Shown here: one piece after another, positions 4,113-22,811 of the stretch
How positions within the stretch are numbered: the stretch's first letter is position 1
Layout: each line of letters starts with the position of its first letter
Assembly: GCA_942493335.1 (NCBI GenBank)
Contig: OW818693.1
Location: forward strand, 1,566,644-1,590,643
Source of the DNA: an uncultured Clostridia bacterium
GTDB lineage: Bacteria > Bacillota > Clostridia > DSM-8532
Reading direction: 5' to 3'
Length of the DNA: 24,000 bases
The notes under the pieces: generated by a model
What the model saw: the letters and a program-made list of their open reading frames with translations, nothing else
What the model was told of the DNA's origin: nothing
Databases searched by the model: none
Made by a program: the position numbers and the translations under genes

Positions 4113-4123
4113 ATGGTTAGCAA

Positions 4124-4899: not shown

Positions 4900-7800
4900 T
4901 CACCCAATACCGAAGAACTTCTCGAAAAAGCGCTCAAGGATAGACGCAATCTTGTCCTTGATTGATTTACGCTTCCCGCCAAACCGTGAGACTGGAGGCA
5001 TGATTGCATCAAACTCCATGCCCGTCACCTTCAATACGCCATCCTTCATGGCATTGTCGATATAACGGCGGGTCTCTTCCGGCTTCAGGTTTTCTGCCGT
5101 GATGATTTCGACAAGTTCCTTCTCCTTTTTTTCCGCAACATGCTGTTTCCAACTGCCCCGAACATCTCCGACGGAGTTCACCGTCGCGATAAACGATTCG
5201 ATGAGGTCTTTCTTACTGCGGAGTTGGATGCTTGAATCAATGGCTCGGTCGATGGCAGCCAAGGCTTCCTTATCCTTGCAGTTCGATTTGTGGTATTTCT
5301 CAATCAACGCAAGGATGTAATCGATATTTATTTCAATTTGCCGAATCAACTCGATTTCAAACTCGATGTCATCGTTAATGTTTTCTTTTCCCTCGCCCCT
5401 ATCCCTGACAAAGTTCTGATAAATGTCAATGTAGCGGCTTTGATAATCCTGTAGGTCACGTTCCGTCAAAAGCTCGTTTCCAATGAATTCATCAAAAGTG
5501 GCAAGGATGTTGCGCATCTTCAGGATGGACCCGAACAGCTTAACGAAATCCTTCTGGTTTTGCTCGCCAATCAAGGTCGAAGTCAGCGGAAATCTGCCCA
5601 GCAATGTGTTTACGAGGGTTTCATACCCCTCATGATAAACACCCTTTTCGTCAAAGCCTTTGTAGTACGCTTCGTATGGCTTCAAAAGAATAATGCCCCC
5701 TGCGTCCTTGTCTCCAAAAAGCGACAGTGCCTCATCCGTTTCGTCTTGGAGATTCCTGAAACAAATAATGTTCCCGTAGGTTTTTACGGAGTTCAAAATC
5801 CGGTTTGTTCGGGAAAAGGCTTGCAACAGTCCATGATGTTTCAGGTTTTTGTCGACCCAAAGTGTGTTGAGCGTTGTTGCATCAAAGCCTGTGAGAAAAA
5901 TGTTGACGACAATAACCATGTCGACTTCCCGGGACTTGATACGCATGGACAGGTCTTTGTAGTAGTTCTCAAATCGGTCTGCGTCTGTACAAAAATTTGT
6001 GTTGAAGATTGTGTTGTAGTCCCTAATTGCCGCTTCAAGAAAATCACGCGAAGTCTTGTCGAGCGCATCCGTATCGAATTCCTCATCCGGGAGGGAATCG
6101 TTCGGGTCCTCCTCATTTTGCGCAAAGCTGAAAATTGTTGCAATGGTTAGTTGTTGGCCCGATTCCGCAAGCTGCTTTTTGAACTCAGCATAGTACATTT
6201 TGGCCATCTTGATAGAGCTGACCGCAAAGATAGAGTTGAACCCCATGACGCGCTTGCCCTTAAGCGAATACGCGCTGTTTCGTCGCGTTTTCTGGTCAAA
6301 ATGCTCAAGGATATACTTGGACACCTCTCGAACTCTCACAGGCGATTCCATGGCATGTTCCCTGTCAATGGCGTGGACCTGTTTGTCCTTGATTCCCGCC
6401 TTTTCCTTGATGGTGTTCGTGTAGTCGACCTTGAATGGTAAAACGTTCTGGTCGTTTATGGCATCAATAATGGTGTAGGAGTGGAGCTTGGCACCAAATA
6501 GAGATTCCGTTGTTTTGATGACTGAATCCTTGCGTACAGCGTTTTTGGCGTAAATGGGCGTCCCGGTAAACCCAAACAGATAGTAGTTCTTGAATGCATC
6601 GGTAATTTGCTTGTGCATGTCACCAAACTGGGAACGATGGCATTCATCAAAGATGATGACCACCTGCTTGTTAAAGACAGCATGCCCCTTGTTCCGCCTG
6701 ATGAACATATCCATCTTTTGAATGGTCGTGATGATAATGTGGGCGTCGGGGTTGGCCAGCTGCTTCTGAAGCACCTTGGTTGAGGTGTTGCCGTTTGCTG
6801 CCCCCTTCTCAAATTTGTCATACTCTTTCATCGTCTGATAGTCCAAATCTTTCCTATCGACGACAAACAGGACTTTGTCGATGAATGGCAGCCCTGCGGC
6901 CAACTGAGCAGTTTTGTAGGATGTCAGTGTTTTCCCACTACCCGTAGAGTGGGAGCAATACCCACCTGCGTCAATGGTGCCTGCCTTCTTGTAGTTGTGG
7001 GAGATGTTGATTTTATTGATAATCTTCTCTGTCGCCGCTATCTGATAGGGCCGGAGCACAAGCAACAGGTTCTCGACGGTAAACACGCAATACCTTGTCA
7101 GGATGTTCAACAAGGTATGCCTAGAGAAGAATGTCTTTGTGAAATCAACAAGGTCGTCAATTCGACGATTCTTCTCATCTGCCCAGAACGAGGTGAATTC
7201 ATAACTGTTACTGGTCTTCTTGCTTTTCTCCTTTGATGCCGTGGCAAGCTCCCTCACGTGGCTATCGCGGGTTGTGTTGGAATAGTATTTTGTCGACGTT
7301 CCATTGGAGATGACAAACAACTGAACATACTCATACAGACCGTTTGAGGCCCAGAAACTGTCGCGCTGGTATCGGTTGATTTGATTGAACGCTTCCCGGA
7401 GCGCGATTCCTCTCCGCTTCAACTCAAAATGGACAAGAGGCAGTCCATTGACCAAAATTGTAACATCATATCTGGTATTGTGGGCCCCTTCACTTTCCTG
7501 GTACTGGTTGAGAACCTGCAACTGGTTGTTATGGACCATTTTCTTGTCGATGAGCATAATGTTCTTACTCGTGCCATCATCTCGCTTGAGAAGTTGAATG
7601 TGGTCGACCTGAATCTTGCGGGTCTTCTCAACAATCCCCTCCGTCGAGTTCGAGATGCATTCCTTGTAGAAGCGGGTCCACTCATCGTCAGAAAATGTAA
7701 AATCATTCAGCAACTCAAGCTGCTTTCTCAGATTCGTAATCATCTCTTGCGAGTTGTGAATCGTCGCATACTCATATCCCTGTGACACGAGCTGTTTGAT

Positions 7801-7917
7801 AAACTCGCGTTCAAGGTCTGCCTCGCTTTGATAGGACGTTTGACGAGTCTGGGATGGCTCATATTCCGTTACTACTGTTTTCTCGTCAGTCGAGGCGACC
7901 ACATGATAAACTTTCAT
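4900..7917 (-). CDS. hsdR: Type I restriction enzyme R subunit (helicase/endonuclease), 1005 aa
   Basis: SF2 helicase motifs: STGSGKTLTS (Walker A), FDECHRS (DEAH-type motif II), FTGTP. Size and position immediately after hsdS fit. AAGGAG RBS. Confidence 0.95.
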   Translation of the reverse strand: MKVYHVVASTDEKTVVTEYEPSQTRQTSYQSEADLEREFIKQLVSQGYEYATIHNSQEMITNLRKQLELLNDFTFSDDEWTRFYKECISNSTEGIVEKTRKIQVDHIQLLKRDDGTSKNIMLIDKKMVHNNQLQVLNQYQESEGAHNTRYDVTILVNGLPLVHFELKRRGIALREAFNQINRYQRDSFWASNGLYEYVQLFVISNGTSTKYYSNTTRDSHVRELATASKEKSKKTSNSYEFTSFWADEKNRRIDDLVDFTKTFFSRHTLLNILTRYCVFTVENLLLVLRPYQIAATEKIINKINISHNYKKAGTIDAGGYCSHSTGSGKTLTSYKTAQLAAGLPFIDKVLFVVDRKDLDYQTMKEYDKFEKGAANGNTSTKVLQKQLANPDAHIIITTIQKMDMFIRRNKGHAVFNKQVVIIFDECHRSQFGDMHKQITDAFKNYYLFGFTGTPIYAKNAVRKDSVIKTTESLFGAKLHSYTIIDAINDQNVLPFKVDYTNTIKEKAGIKDKQVHAIDREHAMESPVRVREVSKYILEHFDQKTRRNSAYSLKGKRVMGFNSIFAVSSIKMAKMYYAEFKKQLAESGQQLTIATIFSFAQNEEDPNDSLPDEEFDTDALDKTSRDFLEAAIRDYNTIFNTNFCTDADRFENYYKDLSMRIKSREVDMVIVVNIFLTGFDATTLNTLWVDKNLKHHGLLQAFSRTNRILNSVKTYGNIICFRNLQDETDEALSLFGDKDAGGIILLKPYEAYYKGFDEKGVYHEGYETLVNTLLGRFPLTSTLIGEQNQKDFVKLFGSILKMRNILATFDEFIGNELLTERDLQDYQSRYIDIYQNFVRDRGEGKENINDDIEFEIELIRQIEINIDYILALIEKYHKSNCKDKEALAAIDRAIDSSIQLRSKKDLIESFIATVNSVGDVRGSWKQHVAEKKEKELVEIITAENLKPEETRRYIDNAMKDGVLKVTGMEFDAIMPPVSRFGGKRKSIKDKIASILERFFEKFFGIG

Positions 7918-7929
7918 TCGTACTCCTTC

Positions 7930-9180
7930 TCACATCGCCTTTTCAAAGGAAAGCAGTTTGTCTCTGTAGTATTCGTACTGCTGCTGCCGTGCTTCTATTT
8001 CGGCGGGCAGACCCGTCGTCAAATCATTGCAGAGCAAATCAAATTGGTCGAGGATGCGGACTATTTCTTCCTGAATGGGGAGAGGGGGAACGAGAACAGG
8101 TACGCGAGCTATAGAATTACTCATTAACTTTGGGTTGCCCATCCCGGGACTAACATAGTCCTTAACAATTGACTGGAGCCAATAGAACAGAAAACGGGTA
8201 CATAATTCTGTAGGGATAGACACGCTTAAGAGGCCACATACATTTGTAATGCTGAATTTCTCGTTCGAATGGAAGAATACAGACCCTGCATTTGCGCCAT
8301 CAGTCGTCCATGTGATAGATTCAAAGTCATAATCATAATTGTCAATGTATCCGAATATTCCGTTGTTCAATGTCTGCGATGAGTACACTGGATAAACTCC
8401 AGCATTAGCTCGAAGATAGTCTTTTGACATAACGCGCCCACGAGTTATCATACACATCTCGTCAAGATTTTTATACTCCACCCCATCCGGGCATAACTCA
8501 TCAATCAGTTTCCGAATCGTCCCAGTCTTCCTCTGCAGACCTTCTTCCGAAAAATCAAGCATCTTATTTTGATAATACTCATACTGCTGCTTGCGAGCCG
8601 TCCGCTCCGCGTTTAGCTCCGCCTTCAATTCCGTTGTCAACTCCGTGAATGTGTCGAGGATGCGGACAATTTCTTCCTGAATGGAGAGAGGGGGGATGGG
8701 GATTTCAATTGCCTTTATTGCTGGTACACTTGAATGAACGACTTTGCTCTTCACTTTACCAGCACTCTTATGTTTTTGTGCATCTGCTGTCGACAGGACA
8801 TACGAAAGATACTTAGGGTTCTGATTATGCTTCAGTACAACCATGTCGCCGCCAGCCAAACACTTTTCATGGCCAACGTACGCTGTTGACTTAGCGATAT
8901 CCGCCACGTTTTCTCCCGTTATAGCAAATAAAATGTCACCGTGCTCGAAATATTTCGGATTTTGAATGGCGGCTTCTTCAGTGTGTGAAACACACTCATC
9001 AAACCATATCCCATATGTTGTATAAATTTCCCCATACCGGACACAGGAAATCCCATATGGGACTACCTGGTCTCGCGTGATTCCCGAACCCCGATAAACA
9101 TCGGTAGCGATTTCTCCAATAGCTTTTATCTCTACCCCATCGGGGCACAGCTCCGCAATCAGTTCTTCAATCCTGCTCAT
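7930..9180 (-). CDS. hsdS: Type I restriction enzyme specificity subunit, two TRDs
   Basis: Two-fold internal architecture. Each half begins (I/L)xELCPDGVE(I/Y)K and ends with the conserved spacer (L/P)(S/P)IQEEIVRILD...QQYEYY. ATGA overlap with the hsdM stop (9177-9180). Confidence 0.95.
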   Translation of the reverse strand: MSRIEELIAELCPDGVEIKAIGEIATDVYRGSGITRDQVVPYGISCVRYGEIYTTYGIWFDECVSHTEEAAIQNPKYFEHGDILFAITGENVADIAKSTAYVGHEKCLAGGDMVVLKHNQNPKYLSYVLSTADAQKHKSAGKVKSKVVHSSVPAIKAIEIPIPPLSIQEEIVRILDTFTELTTELKAELNAERTARKQQYEYYQNKMLDFSEEGLQRKTGTIRKLIDELCPDGVEYKNLDEMCMITRGRVMSKDYLRANAGVYPVYSSQTLNNGIFGYIDNYDYDFESITWTTDGANAGSVFFHSNEKFSITNVCGLLSVSIPTELCTRFLFYWLQSIVKDYVSPGMGNPKLMSNSIARVPVLVPPLPIQEEIVRILDQFDLLCNDLTTGLPAEIEARQQQYEYYRDKLLSFEKAM

Positions 9181-10745
9181 GCTTCCACCTCGATTTCATC
9201 GATAATTGCCGCAATTTTGTCGCGAAGCTGCTGAGCCCTGGTGACGATTGTTTCAAGCCGTTCGTTCAATTCAGTAATATCAACCACTTCTCGCAAGTCT
9301 TTTTGCTCAACGTATGACGAGACGGATAGATTATAGCCATTCTCGGCAATCTGTTTGTTAGGGACAACCTTTACCATGTGTTCGACATCCTGACGGCCCC
9401 ACACAGCCTTCAGTATGTTTGCAATGTTATCATCTGTCAGCTTGTTGCCGTTGGTTACCTTAACGCATTCTTTAGAAGCGTCAACAAATACCGTCGTACT
9501 GGCCTTTTTGTTCTTCTTTAGGACCAAGATATTTGTGGAGATAGAGGTTCCATAAAACAAGGACCCTGGGAGCTGGATGTTTGCTTCGACATAATTGTTG
9601 TCAATCAGATACTGCCGAATCTTTTGCTCAGCTCCGCCCCGATACATAATTCCAGGAAAACAAACAATGGCCGCGACGCCGTTTTCCGACAGCCATGACA
9701 ACGAATGAAGAATGAACGCAAAATCAGCCTTTGATTTCGGGGCAAGCACTCCGGCGGGGGCAAATCTTGGGTCGTTGATAAGTGTTGGGCTCCCATCCCC
9801 AATCCAACGGACGCTGTAAGGTGGATTCGATACGATAGCTTCAAAGGGTTCTTCGTCCCAGTGGTGTGGCTCAGTCAGGGTGTCTCCATGCTTAATGTCA
9901 AACTTGTCAGGGCCGACATCATGCAGGAACATGTTAATTTTGCACAACTGGCTGGTGACCGACGAAATCTCCTGCCCGTAGAAACCCATTCTGACATTTT
10001 CCTTGCCAAGAATCTTGGCAAACTTCAGCAGAAGTGAGCCACTCCCGCATGCGGGGTCATAAACCTTGTTGACTTCCGTTCTTCCATATAGTGCCAAATG
10101 AGCCAGGAGCATCGATGCTTCAGGCGGCGTGAAATATTCTCCGCCCGATTTCCCTGCATTGGACGCATACATCCCCATAAGGTATTCGTATGCATCTCCA
10201 AACGCGTCAATGGAGCTGCCATGGCCGTATCCAAAATCCATTTCGCCGATGCCATTCATCAACTTGACGAGTGCAGAATTCCTACTCGCAACGGTTGCTC
10301 CGAGTTTGTTGCTGTTGACATCAAGTTCGTTAAACAATCCCTTAAAGTCTTCCTCACTCTCATAACCGCGAGCGGATGCCTCAATGGCGTCGAGAGCCTT
10401 TCCCAGCTTTTCATTGATGTTGGGGTCAGATGAAGCATTCTTACGGACATTGCAAAAGAGCTGGCTGGGAAGAATGAAGAACCCCTTTACTTGGACGAAT
10501 TCTTCGCGAGCCTGCTCTGCATCTTCATCGGAAATTTCAGAATACTTGAACCCAATATTCCCAGCAGCTTCTTCGCCCTTGTTGATATAGTTTTCTTGGT
10601 TCTCGGAAATATACCGATAGAACAACATCCCAAGAACATATTGCTTGAAGTCCCATCCATCCACGCTACCACGTAAATCGTTCGCAATTGCCCAAATCCC
10701 CTTGTACAGTTCGCTTCTTTCAACCTCACGTTTGTTTTCTGCCAT
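9177..10745 (-). CDS. hsdM: Type I restriction enzyme M subunit (N6-adenine DNA methyltransferase)
   Basis: SAM-binding motif I VYDPACGSGSLLL and catalytic motif IV IVSNPPYS. HsdM-type N-terminal helical domain. AAGGAG RBS. Confidence 0.95.
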   Translation of the reverse strand: MAENKREVERSELYKGIWAIANDLRGSVDGWDFKQYVLGMLFYRYISENQENYINKGEEAAGNIGFKYSEISDEDAEQAREEFVQVKGFFILPSQLFCNVRKNASSDPNINEKLGKALDAIEASARGYESEEDFKGLFNELDVNSNKLGATVASRNSALVKLMNGIGEMDFGYGHGSSIDAFGDAYEYLMGMYASNAGKSGGEYFTPPEASMLLAHLALYGRTEVNKVYDPACGSGSLLLKFAKILGKENVRMGFYGQEISSVTSQLCKINMFLHDVGPDKFDIKHGDTLTEPHHWDEEPFEAIVSNPPYSVRWIGDGSPTLINDPRFAPAGVLAPKSKADFAFILHSLSWLSENGVAAIVCFPGIMYRGGAEQKIRQYLIDNNYVEANIQLPGSLFYGTSISTNILVLKKNKKASTTVFVDASKECVKVTNGNKLTDDNIANILKAVWGRQDVEHMVKVVPNKQIAENGYNLSVSSYVEQKDLREVVDITELNERLETIVTRAQQLRDKIAAIIDEIEVEA

Positions 10746-12292: not shown

Positions 12293-12958
12293 CTAATTTG
12301 TAACATTGCTAATATTTGTATCGGTAATTTCCCTATTTAGTTTGCTTTTTATCAAGTATACATACTGCGCAAACAGTTCTCTTGCATATGTTCTTGCGTA
12401 CTTGTCCATAGAATAAATCGATAAAACAATTGCAACAACTAGTGACAAACACACGTTAATTATGACACCTTTTAACACCACGACTACAATCAATATAAGA
12501 ATCAGAGAACTAGCAATCCCACGAGTAAGCCCATAACTCCCATTGAAGAAGTCTACTCTATCATGCAATGAAGCCGCTTTGATTTCGGCATAAATTTCTC
12601 TTGTGAATCCTATCCACGTTCTTTTGTTGACGAAGGGATTCTTCCCCTCCGACATAAAATGACTGTATATTGATTCTCTCCAATGCTCTGAGTAGGTATT
12701 GTTGCTCTCTATCATAATCCAGTCCGTTGGCCATCCTTTGCGGAACTTCCACCACATTTTCTCAAGAATATTCCCAACTGCTTGAACCAGATACCCGCAC
12801 GCATAGCTTATCACAAGCATAATACTAATGGCAGAAAACTGATTTTGGTTACTAAGCAACAGAGTGTTTACTTCCTGTATTACAAGGGATAGTCCAAATA
12901 ATGCCACCGCACCTGGGACAAATATACCCGCAAATTCGTAATAATCGAAGTTCCTCAT
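12293..12958 (-). CDS. Integral membrane protein, about 4 TM, unknown function (221 aa)
   Basis: I prefer ATG 12958 (GAGGTG 6 nt upstream) to the GTG at 12967. Two N-terminal TM segments (FAGIFVPGAVALFGLSLVI, ISIMLVISYACGYLVQAVG), a soluble core of about 90 aa, and two C-terminal TM segments (SSLILILIVVVVL, INVCLSLVVAIVLSIY). Confidence 0.6.
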   Translation of the reverse strand: MRNFDYYEFAGIFVPGAVALFGLSLVIQEVNTLLLSNQNQFSAISIMLVISYACGYLVQAVGNILEKMWWKFRKGWPTDWIMIESNNTYSEHWRESIYSHFMSEGKNPFVNKRTWIGFTREIYAEIKAASLHDRVDFFNGSYGLTRGIASSLILILIVVVVLKGVIINVCLSLVVAIVLSIYSMDKYARTYARELFAQYVYLIKSKLNREITDTNISNVTN

Positions 12959-13118
12959 AACAATCACCTCGTAATAAAGAAAATGCTTCTATACCCCATA
13001 CAGCGAAAGGTAAACTTTTCTTAACGGATATTACTTCGTTTCATATCAACTTCTCTCTGACTATATGAAGTCATTGGCGGCGAAACAACTTAAAATGATT
13101 AACTACCAGCATATATAA

Positions 13119-13447: not shown

Positions 13448-14530
13448 ATGAGCCAAAGAATCACAATCTACCCGCTTGGAAACGCCGAAACCATTTTATT
13501 AGAACTCTCAAACAATAAGAGAATTCTCATAGACTATGCTGCAATGCGCACTGAAGAAGAGGGCGATAAGCGTTATGACATCACCACAACGCTAGTAAAA
13601 TTTAGTTCTTTCGACGTTGTTATGTTTAGTCATGCCCATGAAGACCACGTTAAGGGTGCGAAAGACTTTTTTGAGTTTGACCATGCCGAAAAATACCAGG
13701 GTAATGGGCGTGTGAAAATCAAGGAACTTTGGGTTTCATCTGCGTTTGTGCTTGATTCTAGTGTCAGCGAAGATGCTCGTGTTATTCGCCAAGAAGCACG
13801 CCACCGCATAAAGAAGGGCTATGGGATAAAAGTGTTCGCTGAGCCCGATAAACTCGACCAATGGCTTATTGATAATGACCTGTCAACTGACGATAGTGAA
13901 AACTCCATAATCCACGCAGGAACATTACTAAAAAATAAAGACCACTGCCTTGGAGATGAGCTTGATGTATTTGTCCATGCACCGTTCTCAGAGGACGCCA
14001 ATGAGAGTGAAGATAGAAATGACCCATCAATTGTTTTGCAGCTTAGGTTAGCAAATTTTTCGCGGACTACAACCATCTTCGTTACAGGCGATGCTCCACA
14101 TGAAATTCTTGATAAAATAGTCGAGCGTTCTGAAAAGGCCGGTAATGATAGCTATCTATACTGGGATTTATATGACATACCACACCATTGCAGTCATACC
14201 GGGCTATCAGACGAACGTGGAGAGAAAGTAACAGATACTTCTGAAAATATCAAACGCCTATTATCCAATTATTCTAGAAAGAACGCCGTCATGATAGCTT
14301 CATGTCGGGCGTTTTGTGATGTAGGTGACGACGACCCTCTACCGCCTCATTTTCAAGCAAAAGATGCTTATATAAAATATAGTGGCGAGAAGGAGTTCAT
14401 CGCGACAATGGAATACCCTAATAAAGTCAATCCTCAACCGCTGGTTTACGAAATCGATATGTTTGGAATAACCAAGAAAGTAGTCACGGCAAGCCCCATT
14501 ATAACTTCGCCAGCACCGAGGGCAGGATAA
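13448..14530 (+). CDS. Metallo-beta-lactamase-fold hydrolase (360 aa) with a Pro/Ser-rich C-terminal tail ending in Gly
   Basis: N-terminal ITIYPLGNAETILLEL..RILIDYA strand pattern. H62-A-H-E-D-H67 (HxHxDH zinc motif). No signal peptide. C-terminus ...KKVVTASPIITSPAPRAG*. GAGGGGGG RBS 8 nt upstream. The stop overlaps the next start (TAATG). Confidence 0.85.
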   Translation: MSQRITIYPLGNAETILLELSNNKRILIDYAAMRTEEEGDKRYDITTTLVKFSSFDVVMFSHAHEDHVKGAKDFFEFDHAEKYQGNGRVKIKELWVSSAFVLDSSVSEDARVIRQEARHRIKKGYGIKVFAEPDKLDQWLIDNDLSTDDSENSIIHAGTLLKNKDHCLGDELDVFVHAPFSEDANESEDRNDPSIVLQLRLANFSRTTTIFVTGDAPHEILDKIVERSEKAGNDSYLYWDLYDIPHHCSHTGLSDERGEKVTDTSENIKRLLSNYSRKNAVMIASCRAFCDVGDDDPLPPHFQAKDAYIKYSGEKEFIATMEYPNKVNPQPLVYEIDMFGITKKVVTASPIITSPAPRAG

Positions 14531-16791
14531 TGGAAACTGATATCACCACTCCAATGTGCGAGATAACAAGGCAAATCCTTGTTGTTTTGTGTAGCGGTGG
14601 CCCATATCAGGCTACCCTGCAATGCATTGAGAATGTGAGACATGATAATACCTTAACAGACATGCTCAAAATCGAATACAATATCGCAGGATTGTGTCAG
14701 TATCCAAAATATGAAATCCGCCGAGTCGAGCCAATTACTATTTGGGTACAAGATGGACAGTTGCCGATAGTCGAAGCAAGAGAAGATTTCCCGATAGTGC
14801 CTCATCTTGTTGTCAATCGTGATGGCATGAAGACGCTCTGTTATACCGATTTCTCATATTCTGAGATAAAGCACAGACTGAACGGACAATTTATTGTGGA
14901 GTGCATCAACGAGTGGTTTGTAAGAACCGCTCGTGATGAACTTCACCGAGATGACCAGCCTCTTGAACCTTTCTTTTTCGGGGTCCAAGACATGATTGTC
15001 GTAAAGAAGCAGTTTTTTCATAATTATTGTGCAAAATTCAAAGAAATTCAACAAAACAATCGTCTGACATTACAGCAAGTCCCCGACGGTGTCAACGGGA
15101 CAGGGGTATACCTTTACGTTGTTATTAGGTTGAATATCCCACCTAGTAAAGATAACATTATCCATCATCCTCCGAAGTCATTAGGAGATTTATTTGCTCT
15201 TTTTTCATCGAAGCACATCGAACAGCAGCTTATGACCGAATTGTGGGAAATTCTCAAAATAAGGCTTAATAAGAAAAATTTTCAATCTACATTCGTCAAT
15301 ATGTCTTTTCTGTTTTGTTTACCCTGCATCATCTTTTTGCATATCCCACAAAGAAGAAAAAAAACAAGTATTATCGAAACATCAGATAATCGTGTGTTTA
15401 TAACCAACGGTCACAGATTCGGCGATATTCTCAATGATTTTGGTATCCATCGACAGATAATTGTTGGCGAAAAAAAAAGTCAAGAATATAAGTTAACCAG
15501 TACCGGCAAAAATTATCACGGCGAAAACATCAGCATCAGTCAACTCAATCTTCACTTTGAAACAACGCCTCCACTTGCCAGAATATATAGCGGAATCAAT
15601 GAAGGCTATCAACATAAATATTTCGTACTCATCGGTGCAGGAGCCTTAGGCTCTCAGGTGTATGTTAATTGTTTACGCTCAGGTTTTGGGAAATGGGCAA
15701 TTATTGATTTCGATGTTTTTTTGCCCCACAACCTTACTCGGCATGTTCTTTCACAATCTTCAGTTGGACAACCGAAGGCAACAGAGCTAGTGCAATATGC
15801 TAATTCTGTCATTGAGAATCCTGAAGTATGCGCTTATGTAGCTGACGTTCTTGACCATCATAGCGCCGACATTCTTATGACCTTAGCAACAGCCGATGTG
15901 ATAGTAGACGTTTCCACATCGGTCGCGGTGGAACGAATGCTTGCCATAGACACGAAAACAAAAGCACGATGTATTTCGCTCTTCTTAAATCCACGAGGCG
16001 ATTGTCTTGTTATGCTTTGTGAAGACTCGGAGCGAACCATTACACTCGACCAATTGGAGATGCAGTTGAACGCAATACTGATTAACGAGACTGATTTGGA
16101 GAATTTCTATTGTTTGCCAACAACTATAGCATACGCTACATCTTGTCGCGACATAACTACTACTATTCCGCAAGAAAACATTGCATTAACTGGCGCCGTC
16201 GCAAGCAAAGAGTTGAAATTAGCTCAAGAAAACATGTCATCAAATATCGTTGTCTGGAAAATAAGCAACGATGGAATTGCAGCACAAAGATATGCTGGCG
16301 AACGATGGCATGAAATATCTTGTGGTGATTGGCGAGTGTTGATGCGCTACTCCTTGCTGCATTCTCTCCAAGAAAAGAGAATCGAACGTCAACCGAATGA
16401 AACCGGCGGTGTTCTTATTGGTAATTATGACTTTTCACGTAAGATAATTTATGTCGTCGACATGATTTTTTCACCAAGTGACAGTATTGAGGTCCCTTCC
16501 TCATATATCCGAGGCTGCAAAAACTTACCTGAGCAGATAAATCAAATATCAAAAAGAACATTTAACGGTCTTTTCTATATCGGGGAATGGCATAGCCACC
16601 CCAGCCAGAGCACTGCGATGAGCTGTGCTGATGAAAAGCTTCTCCGCACAATTAGCGATGTTTGTAAAGCCAACTGTCTACTCGGTGCTATGATTATTTG
16701 CGGGAGTAATAGCAATTTATCTTTTTATCTTCGTGATGATACTATGGTTTTTTCTGAGACGTTCATATTCGACAATACTGGACAACGATAA
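14530..16791 (+). CDS. E2(UBC)-like / E1 (ThiF-MoeB) / JAB triple-domain protein, 753 aa
   Basis: E2-like: DFPIVPHLVVNRDGMKTLCYTD, a His-x11-Cys pattern like HPN...G.iCl of UBC folds, with candidate Cys104 (nt 14839-14841). E1: YFVLIGAGALGSQVYVNCLRSGFGKWAIIDFDVFLPHNLTRH (GxGxxG plus D.D...NL.R). Candidate E1 Cys539 (ATSCRD). JAB: E624 (NETGGVLIG) and H688-S-H690-x7-S698-x2-D701 (EWHSHPSQSTAMSCAD), the canonical JAMM spacing. Confidence 0.9.
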   Translation: METDITTPMCEITRQILVVLCSGGPYQATLQCIENVRHDNTLTDMLKIEYNIAGLCQYPKYEIRRVEPITIWVQDGQLPIVEAREDFPIVPHLVVNRDGMKTLCYTDFSYSEIKHRLNGQFIVECINEWFVRTARDELHRDDQPLEPFFFGVQDMIVVKKQFFHNYCAKFKEIQQNNRLTLQQVPDGVNGTGVYLYVVIRLNIPPSKDNIIHHPPKSLGDLFALFSSKHIEQQLMTELWEILKIRLNKKNFQSTFVNMSFLFCLPCIIFLHIPQRRKKTSIIETSDNRVFITNGHRFGDILNDFGIHRQIIVGEKKSQEYKLTSTGKNYHGENISISQLNLHFETTPPLARIYSGINEGYQHKYFVLIGAGALGSQVYVNCLRSGFGKWAIIDFDVFLPHNLTRHVLSQSSVGQPKATELVQYANSVIENPEVCAYVADVLDHHSADILMTLATADVIVDVSTSVAVERMLAIDTKTKARCISLFLNPRGDCLVMLCEDSERTITLDQLEMQLNAILINETDLENFYCLPTTIAYATSCRDITTTIPQENIALTGAVASKELKLAQENMSSNIVVWKISNDGIAAQRYAGERWHEISCGDWRVLMRYSLLHSLQEKRIERQPNETGGVLIGNYDFSRKIIYVVDMIFSPSDSIEVPSSYIRGCKNLPEQINQISKRTFNGLFYIGEWHSHPSQSTAMSCADEKLLRTISDVCKANCLLGAMIICGSNSNLSFYLRDDTMVFSETFIFDNTGQR

Positions 16792-18069: not shown

Positions 18070-18258
18070 GTTACAAGTTTGAGAGCAAGAGCGTTTTGTG
18101 TATGGCTTTCTGTACAGTTAGTTTATCAGTTGTAATTCTCACTTTGTGTGTTTTGTACGGTAACTTTTTCTTTGTGCTTTGATGTATAGTAACTGCAAAC
18201 ATCTTGAAAGAAACCATTTGTAACCGTGGCAGAGAAGGTGTAGACTTTTGGTGGTTAC
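18070..18258 (+). promoter_or_regulatory. Array of five GTAAC/GTTAC-containing sites upstream of the ATP-grasp operon (candidate operators)
   Basis: GTTAC at 18070 and 18254. GTAAC at 18160, 18189 and 18220. When oriented alike they read T(T/A)GTAAC(C/G). About 0.5 occurrences would be expected by chance in about 240 nt. TTTGT(G/A) is also reiterated about 7 times. Confidence 0.3.
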
Positions 18259-18299
18259 TAATATTGGCAATGAAATCAGTTGTGTTGCAGGAGGTTTGT

Positions 18300-18908
18300 A
18301 TGAATCAAAAGAATCCGCTGTTCTCGTATCGAACTGCTTGTCCTGATAACATTCCGGTGACAGAACAAGAGGTAGCCAGACACTACGACAGCAGAACCGG
18401 TCTTTGGTATGAGGCGGGTGGTGTTCCCGTTATTGAGAAATTCGTGAACTCACGTGTGAGAGATAAGAGGGCTGAAACCCACACAACAGACTCCCGTGAG
18501 GGTATCGACAGAGGCGAAACATCCTCGCCTCCGCCTCGTTATCTGAACGATACTCGAAGAACACAAGCTGGACCAGACGAAACCCTTATAACCGAAACCA
18601 GAGAAAGCATTGACCGAAGTGAAGGTTCTGTTCACTACGAAGACTTTGTGGCTCTAAAAGGACCTGATGAAACGCTGATTACAAAGACAAGGGAAGGTAT
18701 CGACACAAGTGAATCCTCTTCCTTTGTCCCATTTGTTGCAGAAGAATACAAAATCAAGGCATCCGGCTCTGCTGAAACGCTTATAACGCGTTCGAGAGAA
18801 GGTATTGACACAACCGAAAGAAGCAACGAAATACATGACTATATGTTTCAAACCATCCAAACATTCACGCGTGAATCGACCGACAGAAACGAGGAACAAT
18901 CGGAATGA
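18300..18908 (+). CDS. Multi-core graspetide-type precursor protein (202 aa) with five repeats of a T/S- and E/D-rich motif
   Basis: I prefer ATG 18300 (AGGAGG 7 nt upstream) to the TTG at 18204. Repeats: AETHTTDSREGIDRGE, DETLITETRESIDRSE, DETLITKTREGIDTSE, AETLITRSREGIDTTE, QTIQTFTRESTDRNEE. ATGA overlap with the ATP-grasp gene start. Confidence 0.75.
   Translation: MNQKNPLFSYRTACPDNIPVTEQEVARHYDSRTGLWYEAGGVPVIEKFVNSRVRDKRAETHTTDSREGIDRGETSSPPPRYLNDTRRTQAGPDETLITETRESIDRSEGSVHYEDFVALKGPDETLITKTREGIDTSESSSFVPFVAEEYKIKASGSAETLITRSREGIDTTERSNEIHDYMFQTIQTFTRESTDRNEEQSE
18471..18896 (+). repeat. In-frame coding repeats (5 units; 18471-18518, 18576-18623, 18666-18713, 18771-18818, 18849-18896)
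   Basis: Consensus (D/A)ET(L/H)(I/T)Tx(T/S)RE(G/S)IDx(S/T/G)E. The three central units share GAAAC(C/G)CT(T/G)AT(A/T)AC at the DNA level. Spacing is 30-35 codons. Confidence 0.8.
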
Positions 18909-19849
18909 TAACGTGTCCGAAGGTTCTCTTCGTAACAAATCGGGAGGATTTCGCCATCGACTTCCTCCTATATCGGTTCAAAGACAAAGGGATACCCTAT
19001 CTACGTATCAACTCTGAGGATATCACGGAATGTGATATAACCTGGGAATACGGTAAAGAAGTAACCTTTTCATATAGCGGAGACTCTTATGATTTAGAGG
19101 CTGTCAAATCGGTATACTTTCGTCGCGCTCCTTCTATCTTTCCACAAGGGGTTGACCCGACGGACACTCCTTTTCTTAGGGGTGAAAGACGTGATTTCTT
19201 CGAAGGGTTGTATATGACCCTTGAAGCTAGATGGGTGAATCCTCTTTTCAGCACCTACATAGCCGAAAAGAAACTATATCAGCTCAACGTAGCACGGCAA
19301 GTTGGCTTTACCATCCCAAAATCGATAGTCACAAATAGACCACAAGACATCCTCAGCTTTCTTTCGAACGGCCCCAGTATCATGAAACCTATCTCGCATG
19401 GTCTTCAGGTGAAGGTTGGCGAAGCTTACTCAATCTATACATCGGTTATCCAAGCAGCCGATTTCAAGGACCTTGAGAACACCTTTGAAGCACCCGTTCT
19501 GGTACAAACAAGAATTCCAAACACTTGTGATATAAGGGCTACAGTCGTTGGCAACAAGGTATTCGCTGTCGAGATACACCAAGAAGGCGAACCAAATGTT
19601 GATTGGAGAGTGCTCGAAGCAACCAAGCGTTATGTTCTTCACGAATTACCGCCTGATATCATATCCATGATGCTTAACCTGCATAAATCATTAGGGCTTG
19701 TCTACTCAGCCTTCGATTTCATCCTAACACCAGACGGAGAGTATGTGTTCCTTGAAACGAATCCTGCTGGAGAATGGGTTTGGATAGAAAGAGAGACAGG
19801 TCTGCCTATAGCAGAAGCCTTGTGCTCGGAGTTGATTGATGAAAAATAA
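18905..19849 (+). CDS. ATP-grasp peptide macrocyclase (MdnC/MvdD-like, RiPP maturase family), 314 aa
   Basis: VLFVTNREDFAIDFLLYRFKDKGIPYLRINSED (N-terminal precursor-binding domain pattern). DIRATVVGNKVFAVEI...VDWR. GLVYSAFDFILTPDGEYVFLETNPAGEWVWIERETGLPIAEALCSELI closely matches the FLE.NP.GqW.W.E..TG.pI signature of microviridin-type ligases. Confidence 0.9.
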   Translation: MITCPKVLFVTNREDFAIDFLLYRFKDKGIPYLRINSEDITECDITWEYGKEVTFSYSGDSYDLEAVKSVYFRRAPSIFPQGVDPTDTPFLRGERRDFFEGLYMTLEARWVNPLFSTYIAEKKLYQLNVARQVGFTIPKSIVTNRPQDILSFLSNGPSIMKPISHGLQVKVGEAYSIYTSVIQAADFKDLENTFEAPVLVQTRIPNTCDIRATVVGNKVFAVEIHQEGEPNVDWRVLEATKRYVLHELPPDIISMMLNLHKSLGLVYSAFDFILTPDGEYVFLETNPAGEWVWIERETGLPIAEALCSELIDEK

Positions 19850-20861
19850 GCAAAAAACTGTAGATTTGGGTTCCACACAAACTGAGGTGCAACCAAAAAT
19901 CGCTATGGCTGAGAAAAAGCCAATGGTAGCAGCAACAGAACAGAAAGACCCGGTTTGGCAAGACGAGTATCTATCGCCGAACATAGAAAGTAAACCACTA
20001 ACGGTCAAACTAATTTGGAAAAGTATAAAAGACTTTTTCATATTTCTTCTTCATGCAATATCCCCACATGCATATCCAACGCCACCAAAACTAGCTCTCC
20101 CCGATATAACATCAGATGATGAGCATTTAGCCTTCGATATGTGTAAGTCGCTGTATGAAGCATCACATTCAAGAATCGATAATCTTGAAGATAAATCGAT
20201 GAAGTTGCTCCCTTATATCACAGCCCTCTTTGCCTTCTATTCATTTGCTTATCTAAACATAGCGAATATCCCCACAAAGGTATCTTTGTTGACAGCAATG
20301 CTTTTTTTGCTTCTATCTATCATCATTTCCTTTCGTTGTGTTAGCGTAAAAGGGCGTAGAGCCATATTCATCCCTACCATATACGATATGGACGAAAAAC
20401 CACCAAAAGAGCTTTTTAAGAGAAACACAATATCAAAGGGTTACCTGAAATCTGCAATCATAAACCAGTCCGTGGCTGATAACACCGCTGATATCCTACG
20501 CGCTGCAAGAAGCACCTTAACACTCGCTCTGATTATTGGTTTAGTCGGTTGTATGGTTGGTGTTATAGGATTGTTTGGTGCAGAAAAAACTAGTCAGGAC
20601 GTAAAAATCCTTCAACAAAATGAGACAACCATATTGGTGAAAAGCGTTCAAGATGAGGCAATAGCCATACGAGGGTTAACCGAAAGAATAACAAGCAAGT
20701 ATGAGATACAACAGGACAGCGAGAATGGCAAGCTCGAGCGAAAGAACCAGGAGTTGTCAGATGCCCTAGATACCACGACCAAGAAGGTCGATAAACTAGA
20801 AAGTGAACTCAAAAACCTCTTGGAAAAACTCAACACAGAACCTGTTCCAGCAACAAAGTAA
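19839..20861 (+). CDS. Multi-TM membrane protein with C-terminal coiled coil (340 aa)
   Basis: ATG 19839 overlaps the ATP-grasp 3' end by 11 nt, with GGAG about 9 nt upstream. TM segments LLPYITALFAFYSFAYLNI, VSLLTAMLFLLLSIIISF, LTLALIIGLVGCMVGVIGLFG. The segment before TM1 (SHSRIDNLEDKSMKLL) is reminiscent of DUF5706/SLATT-type TM effector N-termini (weak). C-terminal heptad-like ELSDALDTTTKKVDKLESELKNLLEKL. Confidence 0.75.
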   Translation: MKNKQKTVDLGSTQTEVQPKIAMAEKKPMVAATEQKDPVWQDEYLSPNIESKPLTVKLIWKSIKDFFIFLLHAISPHAYPTPPKLALPDITSDDEHLAFDMCKSLYEASHSRIDNLEDKSMKLLPYITALFAFYSFAYLNIANIPTKVSLLTAMLFLLLSIIISFRCVSVKGRRAIFIPTIYDMDEKPPKELFKRNTISKGYLKSAIINQSVADNTADILRAARSTLTLALIIGLVGCMVGVIGLFGAEKTSQDVKILQQNETTILVKSVQDEAIAIRGLTERITSKYEIQQDSENGKLERKNQELSDALDTTTKKVDKLESELKNLLEKLNTEPVPATK

Positions 20862-21398: not shown

Positions 21399-22367
21399 AT
21401 GAGAAAAGCACTTTGCGTCGGAATTGACAATTATGAAACAATCAACGACCTGCATGGATGTGTAAATGATGCGAACGGAGTAAAGGCTGTGCTTGACCGG
21501 AACGGTGATAGCACATTGAATTTTCAGACCCGCTTGATGTGTTCGACAAGTGAGAACTCGTATATAAGAAGAGGCGATTTGAAGGACGCAATTGAAGAGT
21601 TATTCAGAAGTGAATCTGAGATAGCGATTCTGTATTATGCAGGGCATGGCTCATATGATGAAAATGGCGGCTATTTATGCACTAGCGAAGTGAGTCGTTC
21701 TGATGACGGTTTATCTCTTGACGATATTATGGGAATAGTGTCACGGTCAAAAGCTCAAAACAAAGTGATTATACTCGATAGTTGCCATAGTGGGCTTGTG
21801 GGAACATCAAATTTGATGCCAAATTATTCTGTATTGCATAACGGAACGACTATTCTGGCCGCATGTGATGAAAAGCAATACGCATCGGAGGCAATGGGGC
21901 ATGGTGTATTTACGACTTTGCTTATAGAAGCGCTTTATGGCGGCGCAATGAATCTTTTAGGCGAGGTGTCACCTGGTAGCATATACTCATACATTGACCG
22001 CTCACTTGGTGGCTGGGAGCAACGTCCAGTGTTTAAGGCAAACATCAAATCCTTTGTGTCCCTAAGAAAAAATTCTCCTCCCATTCCAATAGAAGAATTA
22101 CGGCGCATAAAGGAATTTTTTCCCTCCCCATATGAGGAGTTCTCACTTGACCCCACATACGAGCCGGACAAACACGAGGCTGATATGCAGGATGTAAACA
22201 AAGAACACGAAGCCGTATTCGCAATACTGCAAAAGTATGTTAAGCTGAATTTGGTTGTGCCTGAAGGCGCAGAGCATATGTACTATGCCGCATTAAACCA
22301 CAAGTCTTGCAAATTAACTTCACAAGGTCAGCATTATTGGAATCTTGTTACAAAAGAAACAATATGA
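21399..22367 (+). CDS. Caspase-like (peptidase C14) protease with an uncharacterised C-terminal domain, 322 aa
   Basis: KALCVGIDNYETINDLHGCVNDANGV..., ILYYAGHGS (catalytic His) and VIILDSCHSG (catalytic Cys) form the caspase/metacaspase His-Cys dyad. Residues from about 200 to 322 have no motif I recognise. AGGAGGAGG RBS. Confidence 0.9.
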   Translation: MRKALCVGIDNYETINDLHGCVNDANGVKAVLDRNGDSTLNFQTRLMCSTSENSYIRRGDLKDAIEELFRSESEIAILYYAGHGSYDENGGYLCTSEVSRSDDGLSLDDIMGIVSRSKAQNKVIILDSCHSGLVGTSNLMPNYSVLHNGTTILAACDEKQYASEAMGHGVFTTLLIEALYGGAMNLLGEVSPGSIYSYIDRSLGGWEQRPVFKANIKSFVSLRKNSPPIPIEELRRIKEFFPSPYEEFSLDPTYEPDKHEADMQDVNKEHEAVFAILQKYVKLNLVVPEGAEHMYYAALNHKSCKLTSQGQHYWNLVTKETI

Positions 22368-22424
22368 AATCACCGACTCACCAAGAGGCAAAGGGACAAA
22401 TCAACGAAAGGAATGGTATAGACA

Positions 22425-22811
22425 ATGGTGAAGAAGAACGTATTCATTAGTCATCGCTGGGATTATGAAGAAGACTACGAAAAAATTAGTGCTGTGCTAG
22501 ACCGGACAAAATACGACGTGTCAAATCGCTCGGTTGAGAGTTCGGACCCTCTAGTTGGCACAAAAAAAGAAGTTACAGTCGCTATAAAGGCGAAGATTGA
22601 CAGTGCAAGTGTTGTGCTTGCACCCGCTCGTCCAGCAGCGGTCACATCTGGAAGCATGGGGCGTAAGGAAATTGATTATGCCGTAAGCAAAAAAAAGAAA
22701 ATCATAGCTGTCGATACTGGGACCACGCAATCCGTAGCTAGCTATTGGAAAGAAAACGACATCCCTGTAGTCACATGCCGTAAAGACAGTGTCGAGAATG
22801 CAATAGGATAG
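22425..22811 (+). CDS. TIR-like domain protein (DUF1863 / ThsB-like), 128 aa
   Basis: KNVFISHRWDYEEDYEKI start typical of TIR-like/DUF1863. IDSASVVLAP...SGSMGRKEIDYAVSKKKKIIAV matches the i..s..vivl...S.w...Ei..a...gkpiigv pattern. Lies 57 nt downstream of the caspase-like gene. Weak SD. Confidence 0.6.
   Translation: MVKKNVFISHRWDYEEDYEKISAVLDRTKYDVSNRSVESSDPLVGTKKEVTVAIKAKIDSASVVLAPARPAAVTSGSMGRKEIDYAVSKKKKIIAVDTGTTQSVASYWKENDIPVVTCRKDSVENAIG

What the first reader, a model, noticed from the sequence alone, without database searches (positions are those of the whole stretch)
14477..14532. The MBL protein ends in a flexible Pro/Ser tail with a C-terminal glycine, and its stop codon overlaps the E1 gene start
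The last residues are KKVVTASPIITSPAPRAG*. This is a low-complexity tail ending in Gly, and Ala-Gly is the kind of terminus that E1 enzymes adenylate. In CBASS the CD-NTase uses a disordered tail ending in Gly or Ala as the Cap2 substrate. The TAATG overlap (TAA 14528-14530, ATG 14530-14532) implies translational coupling and fixed stoichiometry. Together with the absence of any Ubl gene, this suggests the MBL protein itself acts as the 'ubiquitin' of this module.
Basis: inference. Interest (0 to 1): 0.75.

Follow-up and report, generated by a model that had tools for sequence, protein, structure and literature searches.

The report
6A-MBL defence enzyme's conjugation tail
This is a two-gene anti-phage system of an already named family (6A-MBL), and comparative evidence supports the idea that its metallo-beta-lactamase-fold enzyme carries a flexible tail ending in glycine that the neighbouring E2-E1-JAB enzyme attaches to other molecules, much as ubiquitin is attached.

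Summary
ORF 13448-14530 (360 aa, MBL fold) ends ...SPIITSPAPRAG*, and its TAA shares one base with the ATG of a 753-aa E2-E1-JAB fusion (14530-16791). Both proteins pass NCBIfam equivalog cut-offs for the known anti-phage '6A-MBL' system (type 6a operon of Iyer et al. 2006; validated by van den Berg et al. 2024).

- R-A-G is invariant in 88 aligned homologues.
- Of 96 short-tailed 50%-identity cluster representatives, 52 end in Gly (P~3e-36), 6 end in Ala, and the other 38 keep a Gly 1-12 residues from the end, like Ubl precursors.
- All synonymous codons occur in the motif, so selection acts on the peptide, not on an embedded ribosome-binding site.
- The tail is predicted to be unstructured, is at least 15 residues long, and is rich in Ala/Ser/Thr/Gly/Pro.
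- All 72 tail-bearing loci with enough downstream DNA have an E2/E1/JAB gene. MBL paralogues without the tail have none.
- An MBL ending ...TGRFA pairs with a CBASS-type Cap2 whose own substrate ends ...TGRFA.

The idea is already in print by analogy with CBASS, so novelty is low. The widespread post-Gly extensions and the tail-E1 co-variation are modest additions. Conjugation itself was not tested.

The parts
13448..14530 (+). 6A-MBL enzyme gene (360 aa, MBL-fold, ComEC-like predicted metallo-nuclease)
   Evidence: NCBIfam NF058524 scores 324.9 bits against a cut-off of 220. AF2 model pLDDT is 90.9. Foldseek top hit is the ComEC MBL domain 9ic4, E=1.7e-15. PADLOC gives RTasMBL, LmuA and Avs1a MBL hits.
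13631..13648 (+). HxHxDH metal-binding motif (H62, H64, D66, H67)
   Evidence: Invariant in the 88-sequence alignment A1, together with H177, D215, H246 and H247.
14480..14527 (+). Flexible C-terminal tail (residues 345-360, KVVTASPIITSPAPRAG)
   Evidence: Coil with low pLDDT, below 50 at residues 349-354. Across the family the tail has a median of 18 residues and a minimum of 15, and is 59.5% A/S/T/G/P.
14513..14527 (+). Conserved A-P-R-A-G terminus; G360 is the predicted adenylation and conjugation site
   Evidence: R358, A359 and G360 are invariant; A356 and P357 are at least 90% conserved. 113 of 120 close homologues have RAG within the last 15 residues. All synonymous codons are used, including six Arg codons.
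14528..14532 (+). TAATG stop/start overlap between the two genes
   Evidence: Read directly from the sequence. Orthologous junctions range from -8 to +12 nt.
14530..16791 (+). cap2_3 gene (753 aa, E2-E1-JAB triple-module protein)
   Evidence: NCBIfam NF058523 scores 518.1 bits against a cut-off of 320. Pfam finds Prok-E2_A, ThiF and Prok-JAB. The best PDB sequence match is Cap2 7TO3.
14710..15003 (+). E2-like domain (residues 61-158); invariant C104 is at 14839-14841
   Evidence: Pfam PF14457. C104 and H92 are invariant in 57 orthologues. C104 corresponds to Cap2 C109.
15610..16146 (+). E1 adenylation domain (residues 361-524 align to Cap2) through the invariant C539 (16144-16146)
   Evidence: phmmer to Cap2 7TO3/7TSX. 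G369, G371, G374, D393, D395, N401, R404, K416, D460 and C539-R540 are invariant. C539 corresponds to Cap2 C548.
16369..16707 (+). JAB/JAMM isopeptidase domain (residues 614-726); the H688-S-H690...S698..D701 motif lies at 16591-16632 and E624 upstream of it
   Evidence: Pfam PF14464. The JAMM residues are invariant or at least 90% conserved. There is a weak NCBIfam Cap3 hit.

Best explanation
The two genes form a 6A-MBL anti-phage system. The first protein is a ComEC-like metallo-beta-lactamase-fold hydrolase, probably a nuclease, with a flexible tail of about 16 residues ending in the invariant Arg-Ala-Gly. The second protein is a fused Cap2-Cap3 (E2-E1-JAB). Inferred mechanism, by homology with CBASS Cap2/Cap3: the E1 domain binds the tail and adenylates the carboxylate of Gly360. 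The acyl group then passes as a thioester to C539 (E1) and C104 (E2), and finally to an amine on an unknown target, which activates or localises the MBL enzyme. The JAB domain reverses the conjugate. In the many orthologues that encode 1-10 residues after the Gly, the JAB domain would first trim the precursor to expose it. In this window the ORF ends at Gly, so no trimming is needed. Shown here: family membership, conservation of the terminus, its exclusive association with E2/E1/JAB, intact catalytic residues, and a predicted unstructured tail. Inferred: every chemical step, the nuclease activity, and the target.
For: Both proteins pass the curated NCBIfam 6A-MBL equivalog cut-offs, and the operon matches type 6a of Iyer et al. 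2006. R-A-G is invariant in 88 sequences. In total 113 of 120 close homologues carry the motif; the 7 exceptions are 4 fragments and 3 AGS_C fusions. Of 96 short-tailed 50%-cluster representatives, 52 end in Gly (P~3e-36), 6 end in Ala, and 38 keep a Gly followed by 1-12 extra residues. The residue after the Gly takes 16 identities, as expected for a removed pro-peptide. Synonymous codons vary freely while the amino acids do not. The tail is coil with low pLDDT, at least 15 residues long and A/S/T/G/P-rich. All 72 tail-bearing loci with at least 2300 nt downstream have an E2/E1/JAB ORF (67 complete, 5 decayed), whereas 3 of 3 AGS_C-type loci and the 660-aa variant have none. The conserved unit is exactly two genes. 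An MBL ending ...KGTGRFA pairs with a split Cap2 that matches E. cloacae Cap2 full-length at E=2.5e-48, and that Cap2's CD-NTase substrate ends ...KTGRFA. C104 and C539 are the only invariant cysteines, and the adenylation and JAMM motifs are intact. Experimental precedent in CBASS: the terminal Gly/Ala is conserved only with Cap2+Cap3, deleting the Gly abolishes the thioester and conjugation, and Cap3 cleaves exactly after the terminal residue.
Against: There is no biochemical evidence for this family in anything I could read. The primary 6A-MBL paper is not held, so I cannot say what it tested. Low pLDDT is not proof of disorder. The tail-E1 co-variation rests on single loci per lineage (L092, L096). 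Many metagenome loci are near-duplicates (49 distinct MBL sequences among the 67 complete pairs). In CD-NTases the reactive residue is the true terminus, whereas here about 40-60% of proteins carry extra residues, so either trimming is obligatory or the chemistry differs. Five loci have decayed partners, which shows the pairing can be lost. Nuclease activity is inferred from fold only, at 15% identity to ComEC.
Confidence: 0.75

Rival explanations
1. The tail is only a non-covalent docking or cleavage signal. The E2-E1-JAB protein binds APRAG or trims it with the JAB domain to switch the MBL enzyme on or off, and the MBL protein is never conjugated to anything.
For: More than half of close homologues carry residues after the Gly, so JAB-type cleavage at that site is plausible. 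Cap3 does cleave exactly after the CD-NTase terminus.
Against: 41 of 113 close homologues and 52 of 96 representatives, including this window's protein, end exactly at Gly and leave nothing to cleave. This model would give no reason to keep the adenylation site and both catalytic cysteines invariant. In CBASS the same architecture does conjugate.
Confidence: 0.1
2. The E1 adenylates the MBL C-terminus for chemistry other than protein conjugation, for example thiocarboxylate formation as in ThiS/MoaD, a MccB-like peptidyl-nucleotide adduct, or attachment to a lipid or nucleic acid.
For: The E1 core also matches MoeB, ThiF and MccB. Jenson et al. note that the physiological CD-NTase target may not be a protein.
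Against: An invariant E2 cysteine and an isopeptidase domain are fused into the same polypeptide. No sulfur-transfer or rhodanese module is present. The closest relatives are Cap2, not MoeB or MccB.
Confidence: 0.07
3. An unlinked housekeeping Ubl such as ThiS or MoaD is the modifier, and the MBL protein is merely the target or effector, as Iyer et al. 2006 left open for operons without their own Ubl.
For: [quoted passage not shown] No Ubl is encoded locally.
Against: This does not explain why a terminal Gly on a tail of at least 15 residues is conserved in the MBL protein only when E2/E1/JAB is adjacent, or why the tail motif switches to ...TGRFA with an E. cloacae-type Cap2. The system is horizontally mobile across phyla as a strict two-gene unit.
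Confidence: 0.05
4. The APRAG conservation is a nucleotide-level constraint. The purine-rich codons (AGG GCA GGA) act as the Shine-Dalgarno site of the overlapping downstream gene, and the encoded peptide is incidental.
For: In the window, GAGGGCAGGA lies 3-12 nt upstream of the downstream ATG.
Against: Among 53 unique tails all four codons are used for each Ala, Pro and Gly, six Arg codons appear (including CGG, CGA, CGT and CGC, which destroy the AGG), and there is a single amino-acid change. Loci with a 9-12 nt spacer carry their own GGAG after the stop yet keep APRAG.
Confidence: 0.01

Closest known systems
6A-MBL anti-phage system (type 6a operon of Iyer, Burroughs & Aravind 2006; named and validated in P. 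aeruginosa by van den Berg et al. 2024)
   Same: It is a two-gene unit: a specialised MBL protein followed by an E2-E1-JAB triple-module protein. Both proteins exceed the NCBIfam equivalog cut-offs. It sits in a defence island next to a type I R-M system.
   Different: This copy comes from a Clostridia-like (Bacillota) genome; its nearest named relative is Ruminiclostridium cellobioparum at 82% identity, rather than Pseudomonas. The NCBIfam MBL model ends at residue 338 and does not include the tail. What the primary paper says about the tail could not be checked.
Type II CBASS (CD-NTase + Cap2 + Cap3)
   Same: It has a Cap2-like E2-E1 with two catalytic cysteines at equivalent positions and a Cap3-like JAMM peptidase. 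The substrate enzyme has a disordered tail ending in Gly or Ala that is conserved only when Cap2/Cap3 are present. Some MBL operons even use a split, E. cloacae-like Cap2 and a ...TGRFA tail.
   Different: There is no CD-NTase, no cyclic-nucleotide effector and no fourth gene. Cap2 and Cap3 are fused. The conjugated enzyme is a hydrolase rather than a nucleotide cyclase. A large fraction of the family encodes residues after the reactive Gly.
Bil and Bub bacterial ubiquitination-like systems
   Same: They use E1, E2 and a JAB peptidase in anti-phage operons, and their modifier precursors are trimmed by the peptidase.
   Different: Those systems encode a dedicated beta-grasp Ubl and separate, canonical-type E1 and E2 proteins. 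Here no Ubl exists and the modifier is a 40-kDa enzyme.
Eukaryotic Atg8/Atg7/Atg3-Atg10 (non-canonical E1 pathway)
   Same: Cap2 is Atg7/Atg10-like. In both, a single C-terminal Gly is exposed by removing a short extension; Atg8 loses a C-terminal Arg (my own knowledge; Jenson et al. note the single Gly).
   Different: Atg8 is a beta-grasp Ubl conjugated to a lipid and processed by a cysteine protease (Atg4), not a JAMM domain.

Membership tests
6A-MBL anti-phage system | Adjacent, co-directional two-gene unit: an MBL-fold gene immediately followed by the conjugation-enzyme gene | tested here: met
   The genes lie at 13448-14530 and 14530-16791 on the + strand with a 1-nt overlap. No flanking gene is conserved in the 94 related loci fetched by that point.
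6A-MBL anti-phage system | [quoted passage not shown] | tested here: met
   Pfam places Prok-E2_A at 61-158, ThiF at 364-471 and Prok-JAB at 614-726. NF058523 scores 518.1 bits against a cut-off of 320.
6A-MBL anti-phage system | Specialised MBL-fold protein of the 6A-MBL_enzyme family | tested here: met
   NF058524 scores 324.9 bits against a cut-off of 220. The HxHxDH motif and further His/Asp ligands are invariant.
6A-MBL anti-phage system | Protects against phage infection | not testable with these tools
   The only support is context: the defence-island neighbourhood and secondary citations of the P. aeruginosa experiments.
Type II CBASS | CD-NTase (SMODS) signalling enzyme in the operon | tested here: not met
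   No CD-NTase/SMODS hit was found among the window ORFs scanned. The position upstream of the Cap2-like gene is occupied by an MBL protein.
Type II CBASS | Cap2-type E2-E1 with catalytic cysteines in both domains and an intact adenylation site | tested here: met
   Cap2 7TO3 is the best PDB sequence match. C104 and C539 are invariant and correspond to C109/C548; the Gly loop, Asp and Arg residues are invariant.
Type II CBASS | Cap3-type JAMM isopeptidase | tested here: met
   E624, H688-S-H690, S698 and D701 are conserved. Here the domain is fused to Cap2 rather than encoded separately.
Type II CBASS | Substrate enzyme with a disordered C-terminal tail ending in Gly/Ala, conserved only when Cap2+Cap3 are present | tested here: met
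   This holds for the MBL protein rather than a CD-NTase.
Type II CBASS | Cyclic-oligonucleotide-activated effector gene | tested here: not met
   No such effector is conserved next to the pair. A patatin gene lies next to one divergent locus only (L096).
Ubl-based bacterial systems (Bil, Bub, type 6d/6e operons) | Dedicated beta-grasp ubiquitin-like protein gene | tested here: not met
   No Ubl, ThiS or MoaD domain was found in the flanking ORFs. The tail-bearing protein is confidently MBL-fold.
Covalent conjugation of the MBL protein through Gly360 | Adenylate, thioester or isopeptide species involving the terminal Gly | not testable with these tools
No experimental data were accessible.

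The most novel reading that the evidence does not exclude
The flexible tail plus Cap2/Cap3 is a portable regulatory cassette. It has been grafted repeatedly onto unrelated enzymes (CD-NTases, cyclases, this MBL hydrolase), with tail motif and E1 lineage co-evolving: PRAG with the fused cap2_3, TGRFA with an E. cloacae-type split Cap2, AGFG with a third lineage. In the 6A-MBL family about half the enzymes are made as pro-forms whose reactive Gly is masked by 1-10 residues. The JAB domain would then be an obligatory activator (maturase) as well as an antagonist. This differs from CBASS and would give the system a proteolytic licensing step.
Probability: 0.3. Interest if true: 0.55.

Novelty: new member of a known kind. 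Interest (0 to 1): 0.33.

Why it matters
If the MBL enzyme really is conjugated through Gly360, this is a second and very different enzyme class, a hydrolase rather than a nucleotide cyclase, that uses itself as the 'ubiquitin' of an Atg7-like pathway. That would show the mechanism is a general way to regulate bacterial immune enzymes. The two-gene system is also the smallest such pathway, with sensor, effector, E1, E2 and deubiquitinase in two polypeptides, which makes it a tractable model for finding the still-unknown conjugation targets. The present work adds no new kind of system. It adds family-wide sequence evidence, and the post-Gly extensions point to a maturation step worth testing.

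Tried and rejected
- **E. coli genomes:** a megablast of the locus found nothing.
- **Genome-contig scan:** I spent the single scan on one protein rather than the alignment, and it reached only four close Clostridia/Bacillota relatives. Broader synteny had to come from the metagenome scan and contig look-ups.
- **Shine-Dalgarno hypothesis:** the idea that APRAG is conserved as a ribosome-binding site was tested and rejected by codon usage.
- **Third component:** none of 12 flanking window ORFs recurs near homologues.
- **Hidden Ubl gene:** the search found none.
- **Promoter and terminator scan:** counts were not above shuffled expectation.
- **Primary 6A-MBL paper and the Nature Bil paper:** neither is held in the library.
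- **Source record:** the exact-sequence look-up for P0001 found no record.
- **L095:** this locus (tail ...GGNRYA) was too short to show its neighbour.
- **Malformed queries:** several literature queries failed on term-format rules.
- **First motif regex:** it was wrong and was corrected.
Full report
**1. Observation**

The sequence is as described. ORF 13448..14530 (+) encodes 360 residues ending KKVVTASPIITSPAPRAG-stop. Its TAA (14528-14530) shares one base with the ATG (14530-14532) of a 753-residue ORF ending at 16791.

The first protein is a metallo-beta-lactamase-fold protein:
- Pfam hits are weak.
- The HxHxDH motif (H62, H64, D66, H67) and further His/Asp ligands are invariant in 88 homologues.
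- The AlphaFold2 model is confident, with mean pLDDT 90.9.
- Its best solved structural match is the DNA-nuclease MBL domain of ComEC (9ic4, E=1.7e-15).
- PADLOC relates it to MBL effector modules of DRT, Lamassu and Avs1 systems.

The second protein carries Prok-E2_A (61-158), ThiF (364-471) and Prok-JAB (614-726) domains.

**2. What it is**

Both proteins pass the curated NCBIfam equivalog thresholds for the 'anti-phage 6A-MBL system'. NF058524 (MBL-fold protein) scores 324.9 bits against a cut-off of 220, and NF058523 (cap2_3 protein) scores 518.1 bits against 320.

The published record I could read is as follows:
[quoted passage not shown] They did not identify the substrate.
- It was named 6A-MBL and shown to defend P. 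aeruginosa against phage by van den Berg et al. 2024. I know this only through citing papers, because the paper itself is not in the library.
- Ye et al. [quoted passage not shown]

The window copy lies in a defence island beside a complete type I R-M system: hsdR 4900-7917, hsdS 7930-9180 and hsdM 9177-10745, all on the minus strand. Its closest named relative is in Ruminiclostridium cellobioparum at 82% identity.

**3. Testing the tail hypothesis**

*(a) Conservation.*
- Among the 120 best homologues, 113 carry R-A-G within the last 15 residues. The seven exceptions are four truncated fragments and three members of a longer paralogue.
- In the 88-sequence alignment, R358, A359 and G360 are invariant, and A356 and P357 are at least 90% conserved.
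- An exhaustive profile search found 1014 family members at E<=0.001 among 1.84 billion cluster representatives.
- Of the 150 best, 105 reach the end of the catalytic core. Nine of these have another C-terminal domain in place of a tail.
- Of the remaining 96, 52 end exactly in Gly, 6 end in Ala, and 36 have xG followed by 1-12 residues. The last two also have a near-terminal Gly.
- With a background Gly frequency of 6.4%, 52 of 96 has a binomial P of about 3e-36.
- The sequence before the terminus drifts (PRAG, PRVG, PRFG, RYG, TYG, GFG, GRFA), just as the penultimate residues vary in CD-NTases.

*(b) Protein-level selection.*
The APRAG codons overlap the likely ribosome-binding site of the downstream gene. 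However, among 53 distinct tails all synonymous codons of Ala, Pro and Gly are used, six Arg codons appear, and there is one amino-acid change. The peptide is what is conserved.

*(c) Flexibility.*
Residues 345-360 are modelled as coil with low confidence, below 50 at residues 349-354. Across the family the distance from the last strand to the reactive residue has a median of 18 residues (IQR 15-22) and is never below 15. The tail is 59.5% Ala/Ser/Thr/Gly/Pro against 28.7% in the core, and about 3% Asp+Glu against about 17%.

*(d) Pro-peptide-like extensions.*
Of the 113 close homologues, 41 end at the Gly, 51 have one extra residue and 21 have 2-10. The first extra residue takes 16 identities. 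This is the pattern of Ubl precursors. Cap3 is known to cut exactly after the CD-NTase terminus.

*(e) Exclusive association.*

| MBL type | Loci with at least 2300 nt downstream | Downstream E2/E1/JAB |
|---|---|---|
| Tail-bearing | 72 | 67 complete, 5 decayed, 0 absent (49 distinct MBL sequences among the 67) |
| MBL-AGS_C paralogue, no tail | 3 | none |
| 660-aa variant, no tail (L094) | 1 | none |

No other gene is conserved with the pair.

*(f) Tail-E1 co-variation.*
- The MBL in L092 still scores 364 bits against NF058524 and ends ...KGTGRFA. It is followed by a separate 603-aa Cap2 and a 164-aa JAB.
- That Cap2 matches E. cloacae CBASS Cap2 over its full length (E=2.5e-48), whereas the window protein matches it only in the E1 core (E=2.4e-12).
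- The E. cloacae CD-NTase tail crystallised in the Cap2 pocket ends ...KTGRFA.
- A second divergent MBL (...KPAGFG, L096) pairs with yet another split E1 plus a JAB, and a ...TTYG tail pairs with a fused protein.
- These are single loci per lineage, so this point is suggestive rather than statistical.

*(g) Catalytic competence.*
Across 57 distinct orthologues of the E2-E1-JAB protein only two cysteines are invariant: C104 in the E2 domain and C539 in the E1 domain. The adenylation residues G369, G371, G374, D393, D395, N401, R404, K416 and D460 are also conserved, as is a complete JAMM motif (E624, H688-S-H690, S698, D701). Cap2's experimentally defined catalytic cysteines are C109 and C548.

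**4. Mechanism**

Most likely (confidence about 0.75), the E1 domain adenylates the carboxylate of Gly360. The acyl group then passes through thioesters on C539 and C104 to an amine on an unknown target. This regulates or localises a ComEC-like nuclease. The JAB domain reverses the conjugation and, where needed, matures the precursor.

Only membership, conservation, association, catalytic-residue integrity and predicted disorder are shown here. The chemistry, the nuclease activity and the target are inferred from the CBASS precedent.

The gene junction supports tight co-expression but not a fixed geometry. Orthologues range from an 8-base overlap to a 12-base gap.

**5. Rivals**

- A docking-only or cleavage-only role fails to explain proteins that already end at Gly, or the invariant E1 and E2 cysteines.
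- Non-conjugative E1 chemistry is disfavoured by the fused E2 and isopeptidase domains.
- An unlinked Ubl is disfavoured by the tail's strict association with, and co-variation with, the E1.
- The ribosome-binding-site explanation is refuted.

**6. Limits**

- No covalent species was or could be observed.
- The primary 6A-MBL paper could not be read, so I cannot say whether tail conservation, trimming or conjugation has already been shown.
- Metagenome loci are partly redundant.

**7. Verdict**

However, the system is a member of a named, validated family and the mechanistic idea is already in the literature. Interest is modest. The widespread post-Gly extensions and the tail-E1 matching are the parts most worth following up.

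Noticed in passing
L007:441-3546, L008, L009, L085, L087: A paralogous branch of the 6A-MBL enzyme (about 490 aa; still 326 bits to NF058524) replaces the Gly tail with an AGS_C domain, the sensor domain also found on some CD-NTases and cyclases. It has no E2/E1/JAB neighbour. Instead it follows two conserved genes: a 303-aa protein with an MBL-like N-terminus and an unannotated 228-aa protein. This may be a distinct three-gene system.
   Followed up: partly
L096:2759-7339: A divergent 6A-MBL enzyme (tail ...KPAGFG) with a split E1 and JAB has a patatin-like phospholipase gene immediately upstream on the opposite strand. The layout recalls capV-dncV-cap2-cap3 of type II CBASS, with the MBL protein in the CD-NTase position. 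It is a single locus, so the adjacency may be coincidental.
   Followed up: partly
L005:6092-6913; also L021, L042, L048, L059, L060: Several loci keep an intact APRAG-tailed MBL gene but have a truncated or decayed partner, with E2 only or E2+E1 without JAB. This suggests pseudogenisation or assembly frameshifts, and in either case the MBL gene can persist alone.
   Followed up: no
window 18204-20861: An ATP-grasp ribosomal-peptide maturase of the MvdC/MvdD/graspetide type (TIGR04187, 215 bits, below the cut-off) is flanked by overlapping unannotated ORFs of 234 and 341 aa. This may be a graspetide RiPP cluster. No precursor peptide was sought.
   Followed up: no
window 21399-22811: A caspase-like peptidase (Peptidase_C14; NCBIfam 'caspase, EACC1-associated type', below the cut-off) is followed directly by a small TIR-domain protein (TIR_2/ThsB_TIR, weak hits). 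This is another candidate conflict or defence module in the same island.
   Followed up: no
window 4900-10745 (-): A complete type I restriction-modification system is present: hsdR (1005 aa), hsdS (416 aa) and hsdM (522 aa), with hsdM and hsdS overlapping by 4 nt.
   Followed up: partly
window 12293-12967 (-): A 224-aa predicted membrane protein is divergently transcribed from the MBL gene and has a weak PADLOC hit to Csx27 (E=1e-5). It is not conserved next to 6A-MBL homologues elsewhere.
   Followed up: partly
window 3468-4846 (-): Two adjacent ORFs of 214 and 240 aa; the first has a weak AbiEi antitoxin-like HTH hit (E=0.002). This may be an AbiE-like toxin-antitoxin or abortive-infection pair.
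   Followed up: no
P0140 (725 aa), P0213 (442 aa): These cluster representatives have unusual architectures. P0140 has an extra ~350-aa N-terminal region before an MBL domain that still ends APRAG. P0213 has an MBL fragment followed by a JAMM motif (EWHSHPEG), which could be a natural fusion or a frameshift artefact.
   Followed up: no
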